The notes below the pieces were generated by a model. That model ran no database searches. It saw only the letters and a list, made by a program, of their open reading frames with translations, and had not been told where the DNA came from. Shown in pieces: positions 15,357-59,194 of a stretch of DNA of 64,000 bases (positions are counted from its first letter, which is position 1; the number at the start of each line of letters is the position of its first letter). The position numbers and the translations under genes were made by a program. The DNA is from Eledone cirrhosa (taxonomy: Eukaryota). The stretch is taken from NCBI GenBank assembly GCA_964016885.1, contig OZ024743.1, positions 248,434,001 through 248,498,000 on the forward strand. The letters are read 5' to 3'.

Positions 15357-18300
15357 GGTTATACTTGGGGAGGGTCATATTTGTGTAATATTACCAGAAT
15401 TAATAACAGAATACACTCACTGTTTGGTTGGTTTTCGCTTCTCGCTGTCTTTTATATCTGTAATCTAGCTTACTCGGTCCTCAATGTTGCCATTGACTGA
15501 CCGACGGTCAAAAATAATACAGATACAATATAGACACAAACACATATATATAGTTTACATAATTTACATAAATCTTTCGTTGCACATCTGCAACATCGTC
15601 AGTGGTGTTATATTTTCCTCCTGTTGTGTTGTATGTCTACGCCATTTTTTATTCAGTCTGTCTATATATTTATTTATTTATTTGCTTGTTTGTTTATTTT
15701 ATTTTGTCTTCTTTGCGCATGCGTTTGCGTGTGTGTATATGTTATGTTTGCTGTGTGACTAGTGTGTATAGTGTTATGTTTGCTGGGTGACTAGTGTGTG
15801 TTTATGTGCTTGTTGTTATTGTGCTTGTGTATGTATTTATTTATCTTATTTTATTTACTTATTTATACTTCTCTTAGGTCAGTGTTGTTTGTTTGGGTGT
15901 TGTTGTTATTCCACTCATTCTTTCTGTTTAGCTTTGGTCTTCTAATTTCTATTTCACTGGCCTCTCTGATTTGCCTATCTGCTGGGTCATTTCTATGTTT
16001 AGATATTATTCTAATTTCTATGTTGTCTATGTTACCGTCATGTTGTTGTCTAGCATGTTCGTATAGTACTGACCCGTTTTTTCGTCCTTTTAGTTCCCCC
16101 CAGTGTTGGTCTATCCTTTCACCTATGCTACGAGCTGTCTCACCTATGTATGTTGTTGTCATGTTTCTGCAAGTACCCTCTGTACATCTTATGCTATAGA
16201 CTACGTTTCTAGTTTTACAGTTTATCCGGGGGTTCACCTTACATATGATACATTTCCTATTGGTACAGTGGGTTTTCTTAAAAGGGTAGGTTTTGCTGAT
16301 CAGGGATTTTATGGTGGTTCCTGGCTTTTCTACCACCTTTATTTTTAAGTGGGTCCTTCTCAGGGCCTTTCTACACTGGTTAGCTAATTTCCCTCCAGGG
16401 GTGGCGTCCACAAACATGACACTCTGGTATCTCTGGTTGTCGTACCATGATGTGGCTTTCCCTATCTTATGTCTAGCCCTATCTAAGCTATTCCATGATT
16501 TGCTCCTGTATAATGGGCAAATTCCTTTCATGTCCAGTTCTATGAGGGTCTTATACTTTTCCATGGCTCCTTCGTATACTCTGACTCTGTCTCTTTGGTT
16601 GTAGCCAGAGAACTGCATGCGGTTGATGAAGTGTTGGGTGTGTCTTTCCATTTCTGTTGGGTCGCACATGCTGGACACATTCTTCATCACTCGTACCAAA
16701 TCTGCGATCAGAATATTAAACTTAGCACTACTGGACATTGCTGAGTTTTTGAGTATTAGGTATTTGGAGGCCATGGGTTTAGCATAGTGTGAGTGGAGAA
16801 TTTGGGCTCTCTCGTCTATAGTGTTAATCCAGAGTTCTGTGTCTAATACAGCTAGTCTATTGTTAGGGTGTTTGGAAGGGAAGTCGATAGTTACAGTTAT
16901 ACTCTGGTGTATGGAATTAGCTATCTGCTGGATGCTTTCCATCGTGCTACGTTCTAAATCAAACTTGTTAGTGCTCTCTAGTGGGGGTGTTCTTATAACT
17001 ATATTGATATCGTCTACATAACGAGAGTACATGATGAGGTCTATGGAGCTTTCATTAAGGAGATCTTTAAGTCTCCTTTCCCACCATACCATGAAAAGGT
17101 TGGCAACATCACCAGCTATGCTGACGCCGATGGCTGCTCCCTCATTTTGGGTGTAGATTTTCTCATTGAACTTAAATATGTGGCCCTTTAGGGTAGTTTT
17201 GATACTAGCCCCTATTGCATGTGCGACCATTTTTCTTACCTGATCATTGTTTTGGGGGGTCCGTATAGCTTTGGTCCACCCAATCCACCTTCCCATGGGA
17301 GTCTTTTTTGCCATTGAGGTTATGGTGGGGGGGTCTACCTCTTATAGGTCTACTAGGGCAGAAACATCTAAGGTCATGGCTGTCTAGGTAGTCAGTGTCG
17401 TAGGTAAGTCTAAGTAGGAGGCCCAGTTCGTCTGTGTCGACGTCGCAGAACTCCACCTCACTCTCAATGATCATCTCCACACATCTTTTCACAGCAAAAT
17501 CAATGTTAATGGATGGGTACAGTGACACCACATCCATGCTGCCTATTATGCAGTTGGATAGGCTCCTGTTTTTGTTGCACTCACTGATTCTGCTGAGGAG
17601 GTCCTCTGTACTGTCACATACATCTGGGGACATCTTGATTATGGGGCGTATAACCATTGAGAGGAAGTAGGAGATCCTGTAGTTGCTAGCTATATTAGCT
17701 CCGCATACGGGTCTTGTTGGTGGTCCTGTTGTCGGGTCGTCGACTGTCTTATGGTCTTTGCGGAGCCCATACAAGGGTGGTATGCCATTGTTAGACGCCT
17801 GGAAGTTGTTGGCAGTGCGTCTGCTTGGCTTTAGGATGTCAGTCCACATCATCATGTGAGCGTTGAGGATTTTTTCTCTCCCATCGTGTGTTTGTTGTGC
17901 AACTTCGCTCGTGTTGGTGATGTGGGGTTGCATAGCCTCGATGTAGTTCGGCATGCTATCTATTGACATCCTACCAGACTTATCTGTGGGTAGACACACT
18001 ACCTCACCATCCCTTGTGCGCTGCTTGAGGCTAACCAAGCCTTCTACAGGTTTCCTCCCAAGTTGTTGGGCCTCTGGTCTGCTCTGTCTCTTAGTATACC
18101 TGTCTACTATTTGTCTAATCTTATTTCTAGCTATGGTGAACTGTGCCTCTGTCCCGTCATCTATTTGTTGTTGTATGCAAACTCTTTTATTAAAGGGTAA
18201 CCTCGTAGGATAGATATTACCCATCTTATATGTTTTGTCAGCTGGGTTGAAAAATAGTTTCTCTAAGGGGTTGTCATTATATCTATCGTCATAGTTGTGT

Positions 18301-18812
18301 GTGTTGCTATTATTGTTATCATGGTGGTTGTTGTTGTTTCTATCATTAGCATTAATATTATTATTGTTATGATTGCTAGATGTATTGTTGTTTACTTCAC
18401 CGTTATTGTTGTTGTTGTTACTGTTATTTCTACCATTGTGGTTGTTACTTTTATTATGTTTCTTGTTTTTGTTGTGTCTATCATTGATGTTGCTACATGT
18501 ACTATTTCCATTATTACCACTGTGGTTATTGTTGTTGTTGTTCGTATTGTTACCGTTATTACTACTGTGGTCGCTGTTGCTGTGTCTGTGGTTAATGTTT
18601 CTATTATTATTATTATTGTGGTTGTTGTTGTTCTGTCTATCGCTAGTATTATTACCATTATCACTATTTCTCACTTTCCTGCTATTGTTATGGCTGTTAT
18701 TTCTATACCCAGAGTTATTGTTTATATTACTACTACCGTTATTATTGCTGTTGTTGTTTACCTTTGCATTCCAACGTATTTTTGTGAAACACTTTTCCAG
18801 CTCCGTTTTGCA
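15357..18812 (-). mobile_element. Penelope-like element E3 (clade unassigned), near full-length RT + GIY-YIG, one frameshift
   Basis: ELEKCFTKIRW (open from ~18812), Asn-rich stretch, TDKSGR, LYGLRKDHK, RPVCG, SMDVVSLYPSI; frameshift in the G7 run at 17327-17333; then GAAIG, RYVDD, VVYSIRC, YIGET..R..H, E..I..LN. HHR in the 3' UTR. Confidence 0.88.
15566..15605 (-). ncRNA. Minimal hammerhead ribozyme (E3), short stem I
   Basis: CCA-CUGACGA-u[GUUGCA gaug UGCAAC]-GAAA-GAUU-UA-UGU; only 2 bp of stem I are retained. Confidence 0.65.
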
Positions 18813-18849
18813 CTATATAAATATATATATGTATATATATGTATATATG

Positions 18850-18884
<35 letters not shown>

Positions 18885-18933
18885 GTATATATATATGTAT
18901 ATATATATGTATATATATATGTATATATATGTA

Positions 18934-19720
18934 GGGTCTGTTCTAAAGGCGCTCATATATTCACCTAGCTTATGCTAAACAGAATAATTTTTGAAGCTTG
19001 TTTCTTTCCCCTACGGTTAGCTATACTCTTTGTTGTTCTCCTGTCTCACTCGCTTTACGCGTTTCAATTGTCCTAATAACTTATTTTGGTTATTATTGCA
19101 CCGACGTGAGGTATATGATTTTTAATGCAATGAAATATCTATGATCGTCGGCAAATCACTGATGAGGGACTCATTTTATTACATGTTATCCATGTGCTAC
19201 CTGCAGTATTTTTCTCTATATTTTATTACATATATTTACCACTGCGATTCTGTGTTTTTTCTCTCTCTCTCTTACTGTTCCCCCATTCTCTCTGCTTCTC
19301 CCCCTCTGTCATGTCAGTTAACTCTTCCTCACACTTTCACTCACTCACTGTTTCTCTTCTCTTCATTTCATCCTGTAAACCACGAAGGCTATTTTTCTCT
19401 CTTCTCACATAGCCTTCGCTCGTGTCGGGTCTGTTCTAAAGGCGCTCATATATTCACCTAGCTTATGCTAAACAGAATAATTTTTGAAGCTTGTTTCTTT
19501 CCCCTACGGTTAGCTATACTCTTTGTTGTTCTCCTGTCTCACTCGCTTTACGCGTTTCAATTGTCCTAATAACTTATTTTGGTTATTATTGCACCGACGT
19601 GAGGTATATGATTTTTAATGCAATGAAATATCTATGATCGTCGGCAAATCACTGATGAGGGACTCATTTTATTTACATGTTATCCATGTGCTACCTGCAG
19701 TATTTTTCTCTATATTTTAT

Positions 19721-19724
<4 letters not shown>
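18934..19724. repeat. Partial tandem duplication (493-bp unit plus ~300-bp second copy) bounded by (TA)n
   Basis: GGGTCTGTTCTAAAGGCGCTC starts at 18934 and again at 19427; the copies are nearly identical up to 19724. Confidence 0.9.
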
Positions 19725-19776
<52 letters not shown>

Positions 19777-19829
19777 GTTTCTGAATTTGTTTAGCAAGAT
19801 TCTTTATCTGAAATCGTGTGTTGAAACCG

Positions 19830-23096
<3,267 letters not shown>

Positions 23097-23205
23097 GTAA
23101 TAATAATAAAATTGAAGACTAAAATCCAAAGAGGGCTCGATAAGGAAAATATATATCAAATATATAAGAACCGTAGAGCAAATATTTATTAAAATAACAG
23201 ATTAA

Positions 23206-23256
23206 AGTTTAAGCAAAGAATCGCTGCTTTCACCCTTAACGGGATCTTCTGAAACT
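23206..23256 (-). ncRNA. Type I hammerhead ribozyme, CAGAAGA core variant (E5 main copy)
   Basis: AGUUU-CAGAAGA-u[CCC guuaa GGG]u-GAAA-[GCA 9nt UGC]-UU-AAACU. Confidence 0.7.
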
Positions 23257-24935
23257 AACAAAGTCAATCTGTAAACGCAGAACTGGATATTTCAAAAAAC
23301 GTTGCAACCGGCAGAAGACAGGAAGACGATACTTTGGTTCGTGGTAACGTTCGCTGGCAAAGAACGGGAAAAAACGAATAATACGTCATTAATAGGATCG
23401 GTGAAAAACAATTACGGTATAAAGGAGGTCGTAGACTAATGTTCTCTTAGGTGGTGCATAGAGACGTTCTCTGGCAATGAACGAAAAAACGAAGATAATA
23501 AGTCATATGTGGAGCGTGGAGAACAATAACACGCAAAGACAAAACCACGTAAATGGTATAGCAGAAACCGAAGACTAAAATTCTAACTAGGAGACCAAAT
23601 GAATCTCCGCTACAGAGTTAAGAACAAAGTAAATAAATACAATACAGAAGTAATAGAAACAAATAAATACATACACGCAAACAGATACGTACATACACAA
23701 GCATACGCAAAACCTTACCAAGGTATACAAAACCACGCACATATAAATTTGTGTGTGTATGCTTGTGTACAAATAAATAAATAATTATATAAACGTATAT
23801 AAGTAAATAAATTCGTATATAACAAGCGCACACACATACCTACATATAAATACACGAATGTTCGGAGAGGTAAGTCAACTAAAACAAGAAGTACACATAT
23901 ACACACACCCACCATACGTTCGAACCTGCATACTCACGCAGACGCAAAACTCCCGTATACACATAGCCAAACCCTAAATACCAGAATATGTAAAAATTAT
24001 ACGCCATAACAGTCAAATATACGTACGAGAAGGTATACTTACCTTCACAAAACATGCGGGTAATATATACTTACCTATGCAAATAAGTAAAGGAATAAAC
24101 AAAACATATACTTAGCTCCCACATCAAGACGTAAAATATCCACGTATAGATCGTGCTATCCGTTAGGGTATAACGTGGGGCTGTAATACAGGAAAGTTTT
24201 GTGCAATTTATGTTTACAAGCCGTAATTGCCTCAGATTTTTTGTTTAAGATGTGGTCTGTAGCGTAGAGTATTTCCAGGGCCTCAGCGGCGCAGAAGTCA
24301 CATGGTCTTTTATTTCCGTTATACGATCTAGCCCTAGCTAGGATCTCCCAGTGTAACTTATATTGGGTGTGGTTGTCTTTTAGACTCCAGATATAAGCTG
24401 AAAGTGACGTCATATTCCTTCTTAGAGGGTAACGAAAAGAATGGGTATGCATGTAGGCCCTACGGGACGTGGGTGTTACAACCTTACATTTGTAGACAAT
24501 GCTACTAGAGAGGCATTTCCCGGATAGGGGGCAATCAGCCCGATTCCTACAATTACAGTTAGTACTAACTACAGGGTTGCACGTGTTCCTACGGCTAGGT
24601 AGTTTTGCTAAATTTGAAGCTGTGATGTTATGTGCAAGGTTAGGAGTCGTAGAGTAAGAAATTTTATTATTATCTTCGTTTTTTCGTTCATTGCCAGAGA
24701 ACGTCTCTATGCACCACCTAAGAGAACATTAGTCTACGACCTCCTTTATACCATAAACGTGGTTCTGTCTTTGCGCGTAATTGTTTTTCACCGCTCCTAT
24801 TAATGACGTATTATTCGTTTTTTCCCGTTCTTTGCCAGCGAACGTTTCCACGAACCAAAGTATCGTCTTCCTGTCTTCCTCCGGTTGCAACGTTTTTTGA
24901 AATATCCAGTTCTGCGTTTACAGATTGACTTTGTT

Positions 24936-24986
24936 AGTTTCAGTAGATCCCGTTAAGGGTGAAAGCAGCGATTCTTTGCTTAAACT
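24936..24986 (+). ncRNA. Hammerhead, inverted copy (E5), core CAGUAGA, probably inactive
   Basis: Same fold with an additional A6>U change. Confidence 0.55.
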
Positions 24987-25010
24987 TTAATCTGTTATTT
25001 TAATAAATAT

Positions 25011-28106: not shown

Positions 28107-30486
28107 TTAACCCTTTAGCATTCACATTATTTTAAAATATGGAAGCTAAAGGACTCCACAGCCAGAAATAAATTTAAAAGCATATTACTTGATACTTTCG
28201 ACAGTAAGGAAGAGCATTTAGAGTCGTACAATATAGAGGAACAGCGGGAATTCCTGAAAGCAAACCTGCTGATGGCGGCAGACAAAGTCTGTGGCTGGAG
28301 CAGGCCTATAGGCAGGAGGAGAGTAACATGGTGGTGGAACAGTAAGGTGGAGGAGTCAATTAAGGCCAAAAAGCAGGCTTGGAAAGTATGGCGGGATGGG
28401 GGAAGTAGAGAAGACTATGAAGTGGCCAGGAGGGAAGCTAGGAGACAAGTGTACTTCGCAAGAAGGGAAGCAGAGAAAAGAAAGTTCAAGCATGTTCTAC
28501 AACGCGAGGACCAAAAACGTGAGGTGTTCAGGATTGCTAGGCAATGTGTCAAGGAAAACCGTGATATTGTTGGGGAGAAGTGTGTACTTAATGATGATGG
28601 CATACTTCCCATCACTGACGCTGATAAGAAGGTAGCTTGGAAGTGTCACTATGAAAGGCTACTAAATGAGGAGAATAAATGGGAGAAAGACAGTCTCCCC
28701 CACATCGATCCAATAGAGGTGACCAGCAGTGTTAGTCGAAGGTAGCATAATAAGTAAGGCAATCAAAGATATGAAGACGGGTAAGGCAGCTGGGCCTTCG
28801 GAAATTGTTGCTGAAATGCTGAAAGCATCTGGAACGGTGGGACACACCATGGTCACCCAGATAGTAAACCAAGTCATACAGAATGGGGTTGTTCCGAAGG
28901 ACTGGCTTAGCAACATCATCATTAACTGCTACAATGGTAAAGGAGATGCCCTAGATAGGAGTAAGTATAGAGGCATTAAATTAATCGACCAGGTCATGAA
29001 GGTCACAGAAAAAGTAATAGCGCAACAAATCAGCGAGAGAATTGATCTAGATGAAATGCAGTTCAGGTTTGTGTCAGGTAAAAGTACCACAGACGCTCTT
29101 TTCATTGTACGACAACTACAGGAGAAGTACCTAGATAAAAGTAAACCCCTATACTTAGCTTTTGTCGACTTGGAGAAAGCCTTTGACAGAGTCCCCCGTT
29201 CCATTATCTGGTGGGCTCTTAGAAAACTAGGTGTTGATGAATGGCTTGTGAGAGCTATACAAGCCATGTATAAAGAAACAGTCAGCAAGGTTAGAATTAA
29301 CAACGAATATAGTGAAGAGTTTAGCGTAAAAGTTGGTGTTCATCAGGGCTCCGTTCTTAGCCCCCTACTATTTATTATTGCCCTTCAGGCTATAACAGTG
29401 GAGTTCAAGACCGGCTGCCTATGGGAACTCCTATACGCAGATGATCTAACGCTCATAGCTGAATTAATGGCCGAACTAGAGAAGAATTCCAAACATGGAA
29501 GCATGGCCTAGAATCAAAAGGCCTTAAAATTAACCTGTCTAAGATTAAAGTTCTAGTTTGTAGGAAGGAAAATAGGGAGCCAGTCCCATCCGGGAAATGG
29601 CCATGCTCAGTGTGTAGGAAAGGAGTAGGTAGAAACACCATTTTATGTCCCAAATGCAAAAACGAACTAAGGGAAAAATTAGAAATAAGAGGGATCAGAT
29701 GTTGTTTACTCGAAAGAAGGCTACGTTGGTATGGTCACGTGATGCGCATGAAAGACGACAGCTGTATAAAAAAGTGCAGGGCAATAAAAATAGACGGTAG
29801 CCACAGAGTAGGCAGACCCAGAAAAACCTGGGACGACTTGATAAATTCCGACCTCACACACTTACACCTCTCCAAGACAATGTCACTGGACCGAGAGCTT
29901 TGGCGCTACACAGTAATAGAGAAGACCTGCCTTACCTAAGTCCAAAGTGAAACCTACTACAATCAGTAGGCACCTCTAACAAAATACACTCCCGTCCCAC
30001 TAGTCCCCCCCCCTCTCAATGTAAAGTTATGTTGGTACCACAACATCCAGCCCGAAACAAATGAGGTCGTGTAGGTGTCACAACAAAAAAACACACAGTC
30101 CACGCTGTAATGTGGTCGTGTAGGTAACACGGTAAAAACCTCCCAGTTCCACACTGTAAATGTGGTTGGTGTTAGGAAGGGCATCCAGCTGTAGAAAACC
30201 CGCCAGACAGTCCTATGCAAGCAAGACAACCACTCTTGCTTCAAGTGGGAAAACTCCCGTCCAAACCCATGCAAGCGTGGAATATGGACGTTAAATGATG
30301 ATGATGATGATGATGCTATTATATTTACATGATAAAGGCTTTACCTCACATATTATCGAATCTATGAGATTTTGAAAGTATTTATTTTGAGAACAATACC
30401 TTAACATCAGTTTGAGCGACCAGTTACAGCCAGTTTCAACAGATAGAGGTAGAGAATTCTGGTCAGTTTGAACATTAAAGGGTTAA
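28107..30486 (+). mobile_element. piggyBac-like MITE split by the RTE (28107-28133 plus 30317-30486)
   Basis: The two pieces join to match the intact MITE at 40540-40756; TTAACCCTTT...AAAGGGTTAA termini. Confidence 0.8.
28134..30316 (+). mobile_element. RTE (BovB-like) LINE, 5'-truncated, frameshifted, 450-bp internal deletion, inserted in a MITE
   Basis: WWWN, GKAAGPS, FVDLEKAFDRV, GVHQGSVLSPLLF, YADD, RLRWYGHV, GRPRKTW; (GAT)n tail. Lacks the sequence at 56248-56697 of the sister copy. Confidence 0.92.
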
Positions 30487-31160: not shown

Positions 31161-31275
31161 ATATATAGTAATAATAATAAATTTGAAGACTAAAATCCAG
31201 AGGGCTCGATAAGGATAAATATATATCAAATATATATGAACCGTAGAGCAAATATTTATTAAAATAACAGATTAA

Positions 31276-31326
31276 AGTTTAAGCAAAGAATCACTGCTTT
31301 CACCCTTAACGGGATCTTCTGAAACT
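31276..31326 (-). ncRNA. Hammerhead ribozyme, CAGAAGA core (E6 left arm)
   Basis: Same fold as 23206-23256; differs only in loop III. Confidence 0.68.
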
Positions 31327-32264
31327 AAAAAAGTCAATTTGTCAATGCAGAAGTAAATATTTCAAAAAACGTTGCAACCGGAGGAAGACAGGAAGACGAT
31401 ACTTTGGTTCGTGGAAACATTCCCTGGCAAAGAACGGGAAAAAACGAATAATACGTCATTATTTGGAGCGGAGAAAAACAATTACACGCAAAGACAAAAC
31501 TACGTTTATGGTATAAAAGAAGTCGTAGACTAATATTCTATTAGGTATGTGTGTGTGCGCGTTATATATGTATTTATTTATTTATATACGTTTATTTAAT
31601 TATATGTATACACGCACACACACAGAATATATATATATATTTTTTTATATATATTTTTATGTGTATTTGGTGTATACATTCGTATGTGTGCGGGTACTGG
31701 TGTTGTGTGCGTTCTGTATGTGCGTGCGGGTTTTTTTTTTTTTTTTTGTGTACGTGCTTGTTTTTGTATACCTATGGCGAGTGTTTTCGCGTATGCTTGT
31801 GTATGTACGTATATGTATGCGTGTATGTATTTATTTAATTTCAATTACCTCTGGTTTTTATTTACTTTATTCTTAACTCTGAAGCCGAGAATCATTCGGT
31901 TTCCTAGTTAGAATTTTAGTCTACGGCTTCAGTTATACCATTTACGTGGTTTTGTCTTTGTGTGCAATTGTTCTTCCCGCTCCACATATGATGTATTATC
32001 TTCGTCTTTTCCGTCCATTGCCAGAGAACATCTCCATGAACCACCTCATAGAATATTAGTCTACGACTTTATTTATACCATAAACGTGGTTTTGTCTTTG
32101 CGTGCAATTGTTCTCACCGCACCAAATAATGACGTATTATCTTCGTTTTTTCCCGTTCTTTGCCAGGGAATGTTTCCACGAACCAAAGTCTCGTCTTCCT
32201 GTCTTCCTCCGGTTGCAACGTTTTTTTGAAATATTTACTTCTGCGTTCACAGATTGACTTTTTT

Positions 32265-32315
32265 AGTTTCAGAAGATCCCGTTAAGGGTGAAAGCAGCGA
32301 TCCTTTGCTTAAACT
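32265..32315 (+). ncRNA. Hammerhead ribozyme, CAGAAGA core (E6 right arm)
   Basis: AGUUU-CAGAAGA-uCCCguuaaGGGu-GAAA-GCA gcgauccuu UGC-UU-AAACU. Confidence 0.68.
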
Positions 32316-32435
32316 TTAATCTGTTATTTTAATAAATATATATATATATTATAGATATTATATATATATTATAGAAATATGTATGCAGTAGATGTACAGG
32401 GAAATTAGACAGTAGAAGTCGCACTGATAGACACA

Positions 32436-35475: not shown

Positions 35476-36110
35476 TTAAGATCTTATAGGAATTGAGTCT
35501 TTAGGAATTTGAAACTCTTCATCAATAGTAATGTCAGCTGTACTTGAAAGTTCATCATCACTGTAAGATAAAGTGTCTTCATCATCAGCAGCTACAGAAG
35601 AATTTGATTCAATTTCTGATGACTCTACTGAAGCTGCGTTAACAGTATCCAACACACCACGGATGCTGTCAAGAATAGTGGGATGAGGTTTATGAAAGCC
35701 AGGAATTAATATGAGGCTTTTCTCTGAGTAAGGTTCGATGAAGTTAGCAACATAAGATGCACAGCCTCTAGGGTCATGATCACCACTTTTGGCAGGTTTA
35801 TTCCAAAATGTTCTTTGAGAAGCTGGGAATGGCTTTACTCTGTTGAGTCGAATCTCTTCAAGAAGCCAATGAGTAAGTTCAGGGGAGAAATATTTACTGA
35901 ACGTTTGCTGTACTTTGCTTCTAGAGCGAATGAGGAGCATCTTGGCTACAGTGTTTGGATGTAAGAAGGCCTTTATCGCTCTCCATACGCCCTGGAAGAC
36001 TGGACTGTGGTTAAGGCATATTACCATGCCGAGACGTTCAGGATAGTGGTTGGACATCACCTGAGTAACACCATAGCCGAGGCGTGGGTTGCATAAAGGA
36101 AGTCTCAAAC
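35476..36110 (-). CDS. CRAL-TRIO (Sec14-like) lipid-binding protein, last coding exon
   Basis: Acceptor tttcag (36111-36112), phase 1. Reads GLRLPLCNPRLGYGVTQVMSNHYPERLGMVICLNHSPVFQGVWRAIKAFLHPNTVAK, with the HYPERL CRAL-TRIO signature and an acidic C-terminal tail to TAA. Confidence 0.9.
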
Positions 36111-37201
36111 CTGAAATGATAATATTAGATTTAGAAATTTTAGCTATTTGAAATTTAAATCCATCAATGCATATTTTATACTTGTTATTCATAATTATGA
36201 TGATGTCTAAAGAATAATCTACCAACTGAACATAAATAGAATTTTACTGAAATGTTATTCCATTTCAAAAGGTTGTTTAAAGAAAGGGTGATATATAGAC
36301 ATGATAGAACTGAGGCTCCAATCATTAAAACATTCAAGAAACCAATGAGGTTGCATCTCATAAGAGGCTGGCTAAACCTATGCAGGTGTGACACTAGTTA
36401 GGCACTAGTTAGATGACTACAAAATGAAAGTAGCTAAGGTATCAAAACTATGGTCACTGTGCAAATCCTGAATTATTAATCCAATTAGGAACTCTTATAA
36501 AATGATTTGTTACACCTGGTAATGGTTACTTAAACAGAGTTGTAAGTGCAGATGAGAAGTTTCAGTTGTACTACTGATGAAGTTGGCAAAGAGACTTTTC
36601 TCATCTTTGACTCAATCATACTAAATATCTCTTATTTTCTACTTAATTTACCTAACAGTCGGTTGATTATGAGTCCAATTTACTTTAGAGGAGATAGGTT
36701 AGTTGTATATGTCCTAATACTATTAGTGATGCAAATAAATTGTAACCACATCACAAAATCATCTTTAAAGGGGGCTTGCTTTATAACACTCACAATCTAT
36801 CTACTTATATATTTGATAAATCATTAAATTTATCTTTAATTTACTTAGTTACTTATTTACTAATTATCAATTTACCTATTTATTCATTTATTAGATACAT
36901 GATTATCTGCTTTTCTCATTAACATCCCACACCTATGTATGAAGTCACTAACTGGTCTATACTACAAATTATGACAACATGAAGATCAATAATATATATG
37001 AGAACTATTGATTTTGCTCATGAGCTAGTCAATGAGGTTGATCCAAAAAACAAATCAATTTCACAAATGTTTTTTCCCTTATTGAAAACATTAAGGTAAA
37101 GTATCAGGATTCTTATATTAAGAGGAATAAAAAATACATATTTTTACAGTTATATTGACCCCTTTTGTATTTAGTATATTAATTGATATACCCTTTTTGA
37201 T

Positions 37202-49460: not shown

Positions 49461-49719
49461 TGATATGAAATATCAAATCCATTTTTCTCTAGGACACACC
49501 GTTTCGGAGCCTTTCAGTGACATACACATATACATACATATACATACTCTCTTAAATATATAGTAGATATACATCTTCAGAGCACAGAAGTGTGTGAATG
49601 AAACAGATAAGTAGGTAAGAAGCATGAACATTAAACTTCAGAAGAAAAGGAAAAAGAAAAGAAAGGAAAAGAGAAAGAAGACGAAGGAAAAATTGAGTAT
49701 AAAATTGAGAACAACTCAC

Positions 49720-49864
49720 AATTGAATGATATCCAGGTCGATCATGACACCACTGGCAATCTACTTGTAGTGGTTTGACAGTCCGTCGATATTCAATTGT
49801 GGCTTTCAAAGCTTTCTCAGCAACATCGATATCCCAGTCTCTTGCTTTGAGAAACCGGCAAAGA
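49720..49864 (-). CDS. CRAL-TRIO protein, internal exon (CRAL/TRIO N-domain)
   Basis: tatgcAG acceptor, GTGAGT donor; 145 bp. Reads LCRFLKARDWDIDVAEKALKATIEYRR (RFL.AR.W motif); phase-0 end matches the next exon. First coding exon not identified. Confidence 0.88.
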
Positions 49865-50413
49865 CTGCATAAAGAGAGAAAAGAAATAACAGAAACCAAA
49901 AAAAAAAAAGGGCAATCGATTAAGGAAATGTAAATTCTAAGGAATGACATATATTAGATGAAAAATAAAGGGCTGATGCCGTTGTTGAATGTCAATTAGA
50001 TTTGCCCATATAGTCATCAAATAAGTTTACCTCTTTCATGTACCTTCACCTTACTCTTGAAGAAAATACCTAGACACATATAGATGTACACACACAGTTA
50101 TGTATGATTACACAGATGCACATACACAGAAAGATATGCATTATCACATAGCTAAATACACAGAAAATTATGTATGATCACATAGCTACATACACAGCTA
50201 CATGTAAAGACCTAGATCTGATTATATATATTAAGAAGAATTTGGGAAAGGTACAGTTCAATTTAGCATCTTGACATCAAAACACACAAAACAAAAACGT
50301 CAATAACAATCCTTTTAGATCAATAAGTTCAAATTACTCGAACTGAAAAATGTGTGCATTGATGTTCTCTCTCTTTCACAAACTGCCTCCATCTCTCTCG
50401 CTCTCCCCATCTC

Positions 50414-55110: not shown

Positions 55111-55521
55111 AACACATTGAGCATGTGGCTGGGGATTGAAATCAAATTTCATTATAATAAAAAATTTGTTATAATGGAATTTTACCTGTATATACACATA
55201 TATATAGTTCAATGAAGCAACAGAGGTACAAAATGTCTTAGTTTGATGCATTATATGGAAAAGGGGATGAGAGTTCAATGCATCAGGCTTTAGCCCTTCT
55301 TCAGGAGTACAAAAATAGAGACAGGATCACAAAGGATAGATACAGAAAATAAAAGGTAGTCCAAGTAACGCAAAACAAAACAAAAATAAAGAGTAAACAA
55401 GATAAATTATTAGGTAGTCTTGGTAACAATTTTGGAACGCAAAGTGAACATATATATATCATCATCATCATTTTGATACATATAAAAAGAATTATGATGA
55501 TATATATATATTATGATAATA

Positions 55522-57462
55522 TGTAAAGGAGATGCCCTAGATAGGTGTAACTATAGAGGCATTAAATTAATCGACCAGGTCATGAAGGTCACGGAAAAAG
55601 TAATAGCGCAACTAATCAGAGAGAGAATTGATCTAGATGAAATGCAGTTCGGGTTTGTGTCAGGCAAAAGTACCACAGACGCTCTTTTCATTGTACGACA
55701 ACTACAGGAGAAATACCTAGCTAAAAGTAAACCCCTATACTTAGCTTTTGTTGACTTGGAGAAAGCCTTCGACAGAGTCCCCCGTTCCATTATCTGGTGG
55801 GCTCTTAGAAAACTAGGTGTTGACGAATGGCTTGTGAGAGCTATACAAGCCATGTATAAAGAAACAGTCAGCAAGGTTAGAATTAACAACGAATATAGTG
55901 AAGAGTTTAGCGTAAAAGTTGGTGTCCATCAGGGCTCTGTTCTTAGCCCCCTACTATTTATTATTGCCCTTCAGGCTATAACAGAGGAGCTCAAGACCGG
56001 CTGCCCATGGGAACTCCTATACACAGATGATCTAACGCTCATAGCTGAATCAATGACTGAACTAGAGAAGAAATTCCAAACATGGAAGTACGGCCTAGAA
56101 TCAAAAGGCCTTAAAATTAACCTGGCTAAGACTAAAGTTCTAGTTTGTAGGAAAGAAAATAAGGCGGCGGTCCCTTCCGGGAAATGGCCATGCTCAGTGT
56201 GTAGGAAAGGCGTGGGTAGAAACTCCATTTTATGTCCCAAATGCAAAGTATGGGTGCATAAAATATGTAGTGGGATCACAGGTAAGCTAACTAAGAACAT
56301 AGATTTTACATGTGGCCGGTGCTCTGGTGCAATAAGTAGCAGCAAGTGCCCACAAAATACTAGCTCTTTCAATTGCGCAGAGGGTTCTATAGAAATAGTG
56401 GACAGCTTCCGTTACCTGGGTGACAAAATCAGCAGTGGGAGAGGGTGCTCTGAAAGTACAGTAGCTAGAGTCAGAACTGGATGGAAAAAGTTCAGAGAGC
56501 TTATACCACTATTAGCTGCTAAAGGGTTCTCCCTAAAAATGAAAGGCAGGTTATACGATGCCTGCATACGAACAGCAATGCTGCATGGCAGTGAGACCTG
56601 GGCATTGTGTGCAGAGGATATACGCAGACTAGAGAGGAACGAAGCTTGCATGCTCCGCTGGATGTGCAATAGTAATATATGTGAACGGCTAAGCATAAAC
56701 GAACTAAGGAAAAAATTAGAAATAAGAGGGATCAGATGTTGTTTACTCGAGAGAAGGCTACGTTGGTATGGTCACGTGATGCGCATGAAAGACGACAGCT
56801 GTATAACAAAGTGCAGGGCAATAAAGATAGACGGTAGCCATGGAGTAGGCAGACCCAGAAAAACCTGGGACGACATGATAAATTCCGACCTCACACGCTT
56901 ACACCTCTCCAAGACAATGTCACTGGACCGAGACCTTTGGCGGTACTCAGTAATAGAGAAGACCCGCCTTACCTAAATACAAAGTAAAACCTACTACAGT
57001 CAGTAGGCATCTCTATCAAAACACACCCCCACCCCATCCACACCGCCCCTTTCAATGTAAAGTTATGTTGGTGCCACAACATCCAGGCCGAAACAAATGA
57101 GATCGTGTAGGTGTCACGACAAAAAAACACACAGTCCACGCTGTAAATGTGGCCGTGTAGGCAACACGGTAAAAACATCCCAGCCCCACACTGTAAATGT
57201 GGTTGGTGTTAGGAAGGGCATCCAGCTGTAGAAAACCCGCCAGACTGTCCACGCTGTAATGTGGCCGTGTATGCAACACGGTAAAAACCTCCCAGTTCCA
57301 CACTGTAAATGTGGTTGGTGTTAGGAAGGGCATCCAGCTGTAGAAAACCCGCCAGACAGTCCTATGCGAGCAAGACAACCACTCTTGCCTCAAGTGGGAA
57401 AACCCCCGTCCAAACCCATGCAAGCGTGGAACACGGACGCTAAACCTTGATGATGATGATGA
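55522..57462 (+). mobile_element. RTE LINE, 5'-truncated, open RT frame (sister of 28134-30316)
   Basis: Uninterrupted frame to 56976 with a Cys-rich insert (C..C...C..C...H..C); YADD reads YTDD; duplicated block in the 3' UTR; (GAT)n tail. Confidence 0.92.
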
Positions 57463-58745: not shown

Positions 58746-59121
58746 GGAATTCCACCTGTGTATATATATATATATAGAGAGAAAGAGCCATATATATACA
58801 CAGGTGGAATTCCACCTGTGTATATATATATATAAAGAGAGAAAGAGCCATATATATACACAGGTGGAATTCCACCTGTGTACATATATATATAGAGAGA
58901 AAGAGCCATATATATACACAGGTGGAATTCCACCTGTGTATATATATATATAGAGAGAGAAAGAGCGATATATATACACAGGTGGAATTCCACCTGTGTA
59001 TATATATATAGAGAGAGAAAGAGCCATATATATACACAGGTGGAATTCCACCTGTGTATATATATATAGAGAGAGAGAAAGAGCCATATATATATACACA
59101 GGTGGAATTCCACCTGTGTAC
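58746..59121. repeat. ~60-bp minisatellite, each unit carrying a perfect palindrome centred on GAATTC
   Basis: TACACAGGTGGAATTCCACCTGTGTA x6 plus a half copy; GAATTC at 58747, 58807, 58867, 58925, 58985, 59043, 59105. Confidence 0.95.
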
Positions 59122-59194
59122 ATATTCTTCTATGGAATATGTATTTGGTATATATACAGTATTTCTTAAATGATATGTGGCTCTTTCTCTCTCT

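What the first reader, a model, noticed from the sequence alone, without database searches (positions are those of the whole stretch)
23206..23256. Hammerhead family with CAGAAGA core (U4>A) fixed across independent insertions
Seen: four copies in two insertions (23206, 24936, 31276, 32265) all have A at position 4. Stems I, II and III are perfectly conserved and the other differences lie in loop III (plus one A6>U), although flanking sequence has diverged. Unlike the other HHRs here, stem III is a true hairpin. Established: U4 of CUGANGA is highly conserved, so pattern searches would miss this. Together with the U4>C variant in E1, this suggests Naiad-like elements in this lineage use a relaxed-core ribozyme (inference).
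Basis: partly seen in the sequence, partly recalled or inferred. Interest (0 to 1): 0.78.

Follow-up and report, generated by a model that had tools for sequence, protein, structure and literature searches.

The report
Altered hammerhead heading a Penelope retrotransposon
A jumping gene with tens of thousands of copies in this animal genome carries a hammerhead-shaped RNA with one normally fixed core letter changed (U to A); it likely sits at the capped start of the element's RNA and likely cuts only weakly, which would let uncut RNA be copied into the genome.

Summary
They are the direct and inverted pseudo-LTRs of two insertions of a Hydra-type Penelope-like element (C-terminal GIY-YIG), not a Naiad. 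The genome holds 33,494 matches to the A4 pattern (control 3). A4 is inherited from the master lineage, so it is not independent evidence per copy. Between an old and a young subfamily, 0 of 37 core and stem positions differ against 23 of 165 loop and flank positions (p=0.007), so the fold looks constrained. Copies do not start at the predicted cut (1 of 100). They pile up at the 5' arm of stem I (24 of 100), often after an untemplated G (2,071 matches), the likely trace of a 5' cap. A canonical-U4 Hydra family shows the same pattern. The motif therefore likely opens the capped transcript, and uncut RNA is the template. Cleavage is untested; published mutagenesis predicts a slow ribozyme. Most families here keep U4 (102,569 matches). 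A4 and C4 look like separate lineage-specific changes.

The parts
23206..23256 (-). Type I hammerhead-like motif, core CAGAAGA (A4 at 23250), U·U at 10.1/11.1; predicted cut between 23211 and 23210; inferred transcription start (+1) at 23256
   Evidence: +1 inferred
23095..25009 (-). Insertion 1: 5'-truncated Hydra-type Penelope-like element (23095-24666, minus strand) with an inverted pLTR copy at its 5' end (24667-25009, plus strand), in (TA)n; ends read by eye
23095..23181 (-). 3' tail beyond the first terminus (about +75); present on the left arm only
   Evidence: two termini in 100 copies, 53 ending near +75 and 47 with tail
24159..24666 (-). C-terminal fragment of the element ORF: CxCX5C linker, GIY-YIG-type endonuclease with an internal deletion, CxxC and CxH motifs
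   Evidence: compared with full copies
24936..24986 (+). Motif copy in the inverted pLTR of insertion 1 (A4 at 24942, A6>U, likely a post-insertion mutation)
31166..32338 (.). Insertion 2: two inverted 3'-UTR/pLTR arms of the same family, left arm with tail; ends read by eye
31276..31326 (-). Motif copy (A4 at 31320; one loop III change)
32265..32315 (+). Motif copy (A4 at 32271; one loop III change)
4034..4080 (-). Comparison: C4 motif (CCGAAGA, A·G at 10.1/11.1) of a second Hydra-type family (E1); inverted copy at 7696-7742 (+)
10503..10541 (-). Comparison: canonical CUGAAGA motif with U·U of element E2 (RT followed by GIY-YIG)

Best explanation
This is a hammerhead-shaped RNA motif with U4 replaced by A in the pseudo-LTRs of a very abundant Hydra-type Penelope-like retrotransposon; it likely forms the first 51 nt of the capped transcript and is likely a slow, possibly protein-assisted ribozyme whose fold is still under selection. 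Shown: the motif, its host, its copy number, A4 as the state of old and young subfamilies, conserved core and stems, copies starting at stem I with an extra G, and no excess of copies starting at the cut. Inferred: Pol II starts at the A of AGUUU in an upstream pLTR; the RNA runs through a 202-nt leader without upstream ATG, the ORF, a 1-kb 3' UTR and a second motif; the element's RT primes in the tail downstream of either motif and must read through an uncut motif. Efficient cutting would decap the mRNA (46-nt leader lost) and cap every cDNA at 30-110 nt, so low activity costs the element little and a weakening change at position 4 can be carried to high copy number, while G5, G8, G12, A13-A15, U16 and the stems stay fixed.
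For: 33,494 matches vs 3 control. Host ORF with RWR, DKT, CxCX5C, C-terminal EN; 3,259-bp unit. A4 in 52/52 young and 11/11 old copies with intact 5' arm. 0/37 core+stem vs 23/165 loop+flank differences between subfamily majorities, Fisher p=0.007 (23 old and 64 young copies chosen without core patterns). 5' ends in the first 100 downstream-anchored copies: 24 at 40-47 nt upstream of the cut, 1 within 3 nt, 49 extend 120 nt or more (binomial p=3e-15). 2,071 G-AGUUU matches; 29 of 30 inspected begin there, 22 with a G that the element cannot template. Control family with canonical U4: 29 of 74 ends at 39-46, 6 of 7 at its +1 preceded by G, TATA box at -30 to -23. Literature passages: CUGA-turn mutants have low activity (PMC9901934); U4C lowers activity in vitro yet supports viroid infectivity and U10.1·U11.1 is tolerated (PMC3088659); an Anolis PLE hammerhead needs the element protein and is dispensable for insertion in vitro (PMC11167929); untemplated G as cap trace (PMC9341517).
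Against: No cleavage data and no measured rate for U4A were found. The hammerhead fold is not the predicted ground state: -4.8 against -8.8 kcal/mol, stem I pair probability under 0.1, z about 0. Stems are invariant within the A4 lineage, so there is no compensatory change; invariance could come from promoter or protein-binding constraint, and +52 to +60 is unchanged as well. The lack of copies starting at the cut is shared with a canonical-U4 family (2 of 74), so it does not show that A4 is what slows cleavage. About half of the 40-47 pile-up (positions 42-43) is fold-back at a quasi-palindrome rather than run-off at +1. No clear TATA box upstream of the A4 family's +1. Only two subfamily groups enter the conservation test.
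Confidence: 0.55

Rival explanations
1. The motif no longer cleaves. The three-way junction or its sequence is kept because the element's protein, the promoter or the ribosome needs it, and position 4 drifted once catalysis was lost.
For: U4 is part of the U-turn and CUGA mutants were not rescued by any second change in a type III hammerhead. Catalytic mutants do not impair insertion in vitro for an Anolis PLE. Naiads spread without canonical hammerheads. The motif overlaps the inferred start site. Weak predicted folding.
Against: All other catalytic positions (C3·G8, G5, A6, A9, G12, A13, A14, A15.1-U16.1, U17) are unchanged across subfamilies while loops change. The C4 family also changes position 4 and keeps those positions. 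A dead ribozyme would be expected to lose other core letters too (inference).
Confidence: 0.3
2. One reading: a fully active ribozyme with a relaxed core, in which A4 is compensated by context (A7, U·U, a real stem III, or the element protein).
For: A4 carried through tens of thousands of copies and several subfamilies. Stem III is a true hairpin, so no dimer is needed. Natural core variants can be active.
Against: Copies that start at the cut are not enriched: 1 of 100, and 137 genome-wide matches with three non-template bases before the site against 29,953 anchors, many of them inversion or deletion joints. Capped, uncut RNA appears to be a main template. Published CUGA mutants are slow.
Confidence: 0.1
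3. A neutral relic: an ancestral hammerhead was hit once in a master copy and is merely young, so it looks conserved.
For: Top copies are 96-100% identical; window-only conservation is marginal; no covariation inside the lineage.
Against: Old copies (about 81% identical to the young reference) differ at 4 of 14 loop and 19 of 151 flank positions but 0 of 37 core and stem positions.
Confidence: 0.05

Closest known systems
Hydra-clade PLE hammerheads (Craig et al. 2021, PMC8557442, File S2)
   Same: Type I motif near the 3' end of the element, short stem I, U·U at 10.1/11.1, 3-4 bp stem II, GAA-A, NUH site; host with DKT, RWK-like and CxCX5C motifs, inserting in (TA)n. Hydra-1_aJap has nearly the same stem I.
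   Different: Every Hydra row in that table has CUGANGA (found with a descriptor that requires it). Here position 4 is A, loop III is 9 nt rather than 1-3 nt, and the unit is 3.26 kb rather than under 3 kb. The searched passages do not place the motif at the cap site.
Minimal PLE hammerheads (Cervera and de la Pena 2014, PMC4209133)
   Same: Located in pLTRs, massive copy number, inverted pairs, expected low activity, a known core variant (U3-A8).
   Different: Those have U4, G10.1-C11.1 with a bulged base and little or no stem III (dimer-dependent). This one has A4, U·U and a monomeric stem III.
Viroid U4C natural variant and other core variants (Perreault et al. 2011, PMC3088659)
   Same: A natural change at position 4 that is tolerated in vivo; U10.1·U11.1 seen in nature.
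   Different: U4C, in a viroid; U4A does not occur in that paper's main text. Here the variant is the state of a whole retrotransposon lineage.
Anolis Poseidon (PAc) hammerhead (Frangieh et al. 2024, PMC11167929)
   Same: Hammerhead near the 5' end of the RNA, RT starts at two internal sites that bound the tail, uncut RNA is the template, no reads end at the cut.
   Different: Canonical core as far as the passages show; the ORF starts inside the motif, whereas here it starts 202 nt after +1; different PLE clade.

Membership tests
Hammerhead ribozyme, type I | Three stems around the core, stem I open | tested here: met
   Stems of 5, 3 and 4 bp in all four copies; not the minimum-energy fold
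Hammerhead ribozyme, type I | C3·G8 pair, G5, A6, A9, G12, A13, A14, A15.1-U16.1, H17 | tested here: met
   Present in 3 of 4 window copies (A6>U in 24936) and in both subfamily majorities
Hammerhead ribozyme, type I | U4 of the CUGA turn | tested here: not met
   A in 63 of 63 pattern-independent copies with an intact 5' arm. Filed therefore as a hammerhead-like core variant, not as a canonical member
Hammerhead ribozyme, type I | 10.1-11.1 base pair (usually G-C) | tested here: not met
   U·U; a known tolerated variant and the common Hydra state
Hammerhead ribozyme, type I | Match to an Rfam hammerhead model | tested here: not met
   No hammerhead family at E<=10 on 23170-23300
Hammerhead ribozyme, type I | Site-specific self-cleavage | not testable with these tools
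   No RNA holder listed; genomic 5' ends show no excess at the site in this or a canonical family
Hydra clade of Penelope-like elements | Single ORF, RT followed by C-terminal GIY-YIG endonuclease | tested here: met
   Overlapping ORF pieces in L063, L072, L069, L070; no uninterrupted full-length frame was seen among the loci read
Hydra clade of Penelope-like elements | RWK-like motif, DKT, CxCX5C linker, CxxC and CxH, no CCHH cysteine pair | tested here: met
   RWR, SDKTG, CNCRNRADC, CDLC, CKH, one Cys in the GIY-YIG core read against the text
Hydra clade of Penelope-like elements | (TA)n target, pLTRs, inverted 5' copies, tail | tested here: met
Hydra clade of Penelope-like elements | Phylogenetic placement with named Hydra families | not tested
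   The tree used unnamed homologues only
Naiad clade | N-terminal GIY-YIG endonuclease | tested here: not met
   Endonuclease is C-terminal in the A4 and C4 families
Naiad clade | DKA motif | tested here: not met
   DKT in both families

The most novel reading that the evidence does not exclude
Hydra-type Penelope elements begin their capped mRNA with the hammerhead itself, so cleavage is a self-decapping switch between a capped RNA that serves as RT template and a cut RNA that is degraded or translated without a cap; position 4 is the tuning site, changed independently to A and to C in two of this genome's most successful families, and the A4 form is an active natural ribozyme that standard descriptors and Rfam miss.
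Probability: 0.25. Interest if true: 0.78.

Novelty: new variant of a known kind. Interest (0 to 1): 0.55.

Why it matters
What hammerheads do in Penelope-like elements is an open question (PMC8557442 calls it unclear). This family gives a natural core variant in tens of thousands of copies, a canonical relative with the same layout as a control, and a genomic trace that puts the motif at the cap site. That makes the question testable with a 51-nt RNA and a 5' RACE. It also shows that CUGANGA descriptors miss whole families, which bears on reports that some PLEs lack hammerheads, and that fold-back junctions create false canonical cores.

Tried and rejected
Rfam on the whole window: the 150 listed of 239 matches are AT-repeat noise with no hammerhead; the other 89 were not shown. 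The repeat finder was swamped by (TA)n. A canonical-U4 sister subfamily was considered after 1,054 non-A4 matches (82 of the first 100 with T) and rejected: of 30 loci, 23 are fold-back junctions at TTC(A/T)GAA without a stem I arm (19 flagged by script, 4 by eye) and 7 are point variants (3 G, 2 C, 2 T). Other A4 families with U·U: 3,779 matches against 918 control, by eye mutants of known families plus one small repeat without stem II; families whose stem II starts with C, or without U·U, were not surveyed beyond. First conservation test (p=0.013) used copies partly selected by core patterns and was redone without them. First 5'-end census merged 17 identical long copies (83 of 100) and was redone by coordinate. 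L165 first looked like a U4 relative of the C4 family; one search showed that motif belongs to a nested element. Sequencing runs: no RNA holder listed. Contigs of organisms B and C cover the motif at low depth with family-type letters; they may be trace DNA and were not counted as cross-species support. No metagenome loci. Protein search gave 857 homologues without context. Earlier findings: nothing. Papers not held: Lunse 2017, Martick and Scott 2006, two further PMC ids, so a published U4A variant or rate there cannot be excluded. Searches for a natural U4A or CAGAAGA core listed nothing relevant by title or abstract start; file 1 of the PMC4209133 supplement was not searchable. The tree is the quick one; the careful search did not finish.

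Full report
Observation. A relaxed scan of the window found the four motifs at 23206-23256 (-), 24936-24986 (+), 31276-31326 (-) and 32265-32315 (+). Each reads as a type I hammerhead: 5-bp stem I, core CAGAAGA, U, 3-bp stem II with a 5-nt loop, U, GAAA, 3 further pairs of stem III with a 9-nt loop, and the site CUU/AAACU. Differences are A6>U in 24936 and one loop III change each in the last two. Positions 10.1/11.1 are U·U. The same scan found E1's CCGAAGA motif twice and E2's canonical motif once. Rfam gives no hammerhead match on this stretch at E<=10. The hammerhead fold is 4 kcal/mol above the predicted minimum and folding is no better than shuffles.

Host element. Each insertion is a pair of inverted arms in (TA)n, with a tail on one arm, the layout described for Penelope-like elements (PMC8557442, passages). 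The two motifs of an insertion are therefore not independent. Insertion 1 carries a C-terminal endonuclease fragment. Longer copies give a 3,259-bp unit (L063) with an ORF of RT followed by GIY-YIG, and the motifs RWR, DKT, CxCX5C, CxxC and CxH. These match the Hydra clade as defined in section 11 of PMC8557442 and fail Naiad, whose endonuclease is N-terminal. E1 has the same motifs and is 40% identical in protein. No uninterrupted full frame of the A4 family was seen among the loci read. File S2 of that paper lists Hydra hammerheads with CUGANGA throughout and U·U in many (supplement part 2), so U·U is a clade trait and A4 is the new part.

How fixed is A4. The pattern with A4 has 33,494 matches against 3 for the reversed control; these are motif copies, not insertions. 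A related pattern with C, G or T at position 4 has 1,054. Of 30 such loci, 23 are fold-back junctions at the quasi-palindrome TTC(A/T)GAA, where the opposite strand supplies a T and the stem I arm is missing; 7 are point variants. Older subfamilies with other loops keep A4. In samples chosen without core patterns, A4 is in 52 of 52 young and 11 of 11 old copies that retain +1. A4 is thus the state of the master lineage, inherited by each copy.

Is the fold constrained. Window-only evidence is marginal (P 0.015-0.056 per pair between insertions). Between majorities of 64 young copies (downstream anchor) and 23 old copies (similarity search), 0 of 37 core and stem positions differ, against 4 of 14 loop and 19 of 151 flank positions (Fisher p=0.007). 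Changes fall in both loops and spare both strands of each stem, which fits RNA structure. Against: no compensatory changes, only two groups, and +52 to +60 is unchanged as well.

How general is the relaxed core. A canonical pattern with U·U has 102,569 matches (control 657). A4 with stem II not starting with C has 3,779 (control 918), by eye mutants and chance. E1's C4 is in 32 of 32 motifs matched in 30 loci and in a diverged relative (L469). In a quick tree of 17 genome rows and 14 homologues, the A4 family, a canonical-U4 family (family B) and the group holding C4 form an unresolved fork, and C4 sits in a supported group (98) that includes L474, whose nearest downstream motif has U4 (association by proximity). 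With U4 in an outgroup (L481) and in the published table, A4 and C4 are most simply separate derived changes (inference).

Where copies start. If the motif cut the template, copies should begin at AAACU. In the first 100 copies anchored just downstream of the site (all 100 recovered), 1 begins within 3 nt of it, 15 at 4-39 nt, 24 at 40-47 nt, 11 at 48-119 nt and 49 run further. The 40-47 window is the 5' arm of stem I (binomial p=3e-15); 12 of the 24 are at 42-43, mostly fold-backs, and 8 are exactly at the A of AGUUU, 6 of them after a G where the element has T. Genome-wide, 2,071 matches have G before AGUUU; 29 of 30 inspected begin there, 7 could take the G from an inverted arm, 22 cannot (a few are two arms of one insertion or near-duplicates). 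An untemplated 5' G is a recognised trace of copying the cap (PMC9341517, passages). The sequence at +1 resembles an initiator (recalled consensus). Only 137 matches have three non-template bases before the cut site against 29,953 anchors. Control: family B (canonical U4, U·U, true stem III; 12,370 anchors; 74 of the first 100 listed were examined) has 29 ends at 39-46, 6 of 7 at its +1 after G, a TATA box at -30 to -23, and 2 ends at the cut. So the start at stem I is shared by both families, and the lack of cut-site starts is not special to A4.

Mechanism. Inferred: transcription starts at the first base of stem I in an upstream pLTR; a 202-nt leader without upstream ATG precedes the ORF. 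RT primes at one of two sites, near +75 or +158 (53 and 47 of 100 copies), as shown in vitro for an Anolis element (PMC11167929, passages). Priming on the 5' copy yields the short copies that end at the cap; priming on the 3' copy yields long ones. Both need an uncut motif. Cutting would remove the cap with 46 nt. Weak or conditional activity is then tolerated, and may be favoured. The literature fits: CUGA-turn mutants are slow (PMC9901934, passages), U4 contacts the A6-N7 phosphate and U4C still supports a viroid (PMC3088659, passages), metazoan PLE hammerheads are slow (PMC4209133, parts 1-2 of 4), and the Anolis one needs protein. Cleavage-linked cap-independent translation is reported for viral 5' UTR hammerheads (PMC13725137, passages) and is a possible purpose, untested here. 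In Drosophila Penelope an intron begins 46 bp after the start (PMC2377424, passages), so a hammerhead at +1 is not universal.

Novelty and verdict. Hammerheads in Hydra PLEs are known. I found no natural U4A core in searches or in the supplements searched, and no statement placing the motif at the cap site's listing or the passages read; several key papers were not held. PMC6765202 was seen as passages and PMC11014351 as passages without U4 variants. The finding is a real, large-scale core variant with signs of constraint, on a misnamed host, with activity unproven. Best reading 0.55; dead but useful fold 0.30; fully active 0.10; neutral 0.05. Interest 0.55.

Noticed in passing
G000, e.g. L077-L084 (C1:747964, C1:4182333): Fold-back inversions at TTC(A/T)GAA inside the core create a canonical-looking CUGAAGA on one arm without stem I; about three quarters of 1,054 non-A4 matches by the 23-of-30 sample.
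   Followed up: yes
L399-L468, L470-L472 (family B): Canonical-U4 Hydra-type family with a TATA box 30 nt upstream of stem I and extra-G starts at the first base of stem I.
   Followed up: yes
window 3830-7784; L107-L136, L364, L365: E1 is a young Hydra-type family: 150 of 150 scored hits at 99-100% identity, many 832-aa open frames, C4 core with A·G at 10.1/11.1.
   Followed up: partly
window 15300-21170: Another Penelope-like element pair (71% identical inverted ORFs) with a canonical CUGAAGA motif about 205 nt after the ORF end at 20779.
   Followed up: no
L021, L056: A family with the U3-A8 covariant core (UUGAUAA) and full stems.
   Followed up: no
G000:C1:5388711-5392665 and C1:5544277-5546331: Tandem arrays of 310-bp hammerhead-bearing units, one in two inverted halves.
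   Followed up: no
G000:C1:53356631-53369063: Seven nearby copies of an otherwise canonical family all carry A4, a local amplification of one mutant.
   Followed up: no
window 35479-36243 and 49555-49953 (minus strand): CRAL-TRIO and CRAL_TRIO_N matches, likely exons of a host gene.
   Followed up: no
window 55501-56973 and 28723-29939: LINE-type RT, with a PHD finger in the first; the two copies are 93-95% identical.
   Followed up: no
window 58746-59130: Array of a 22-nt perfect palindrome spaced by AT/AG repeats, source of spurious miRNA matches.
   Followed up: no
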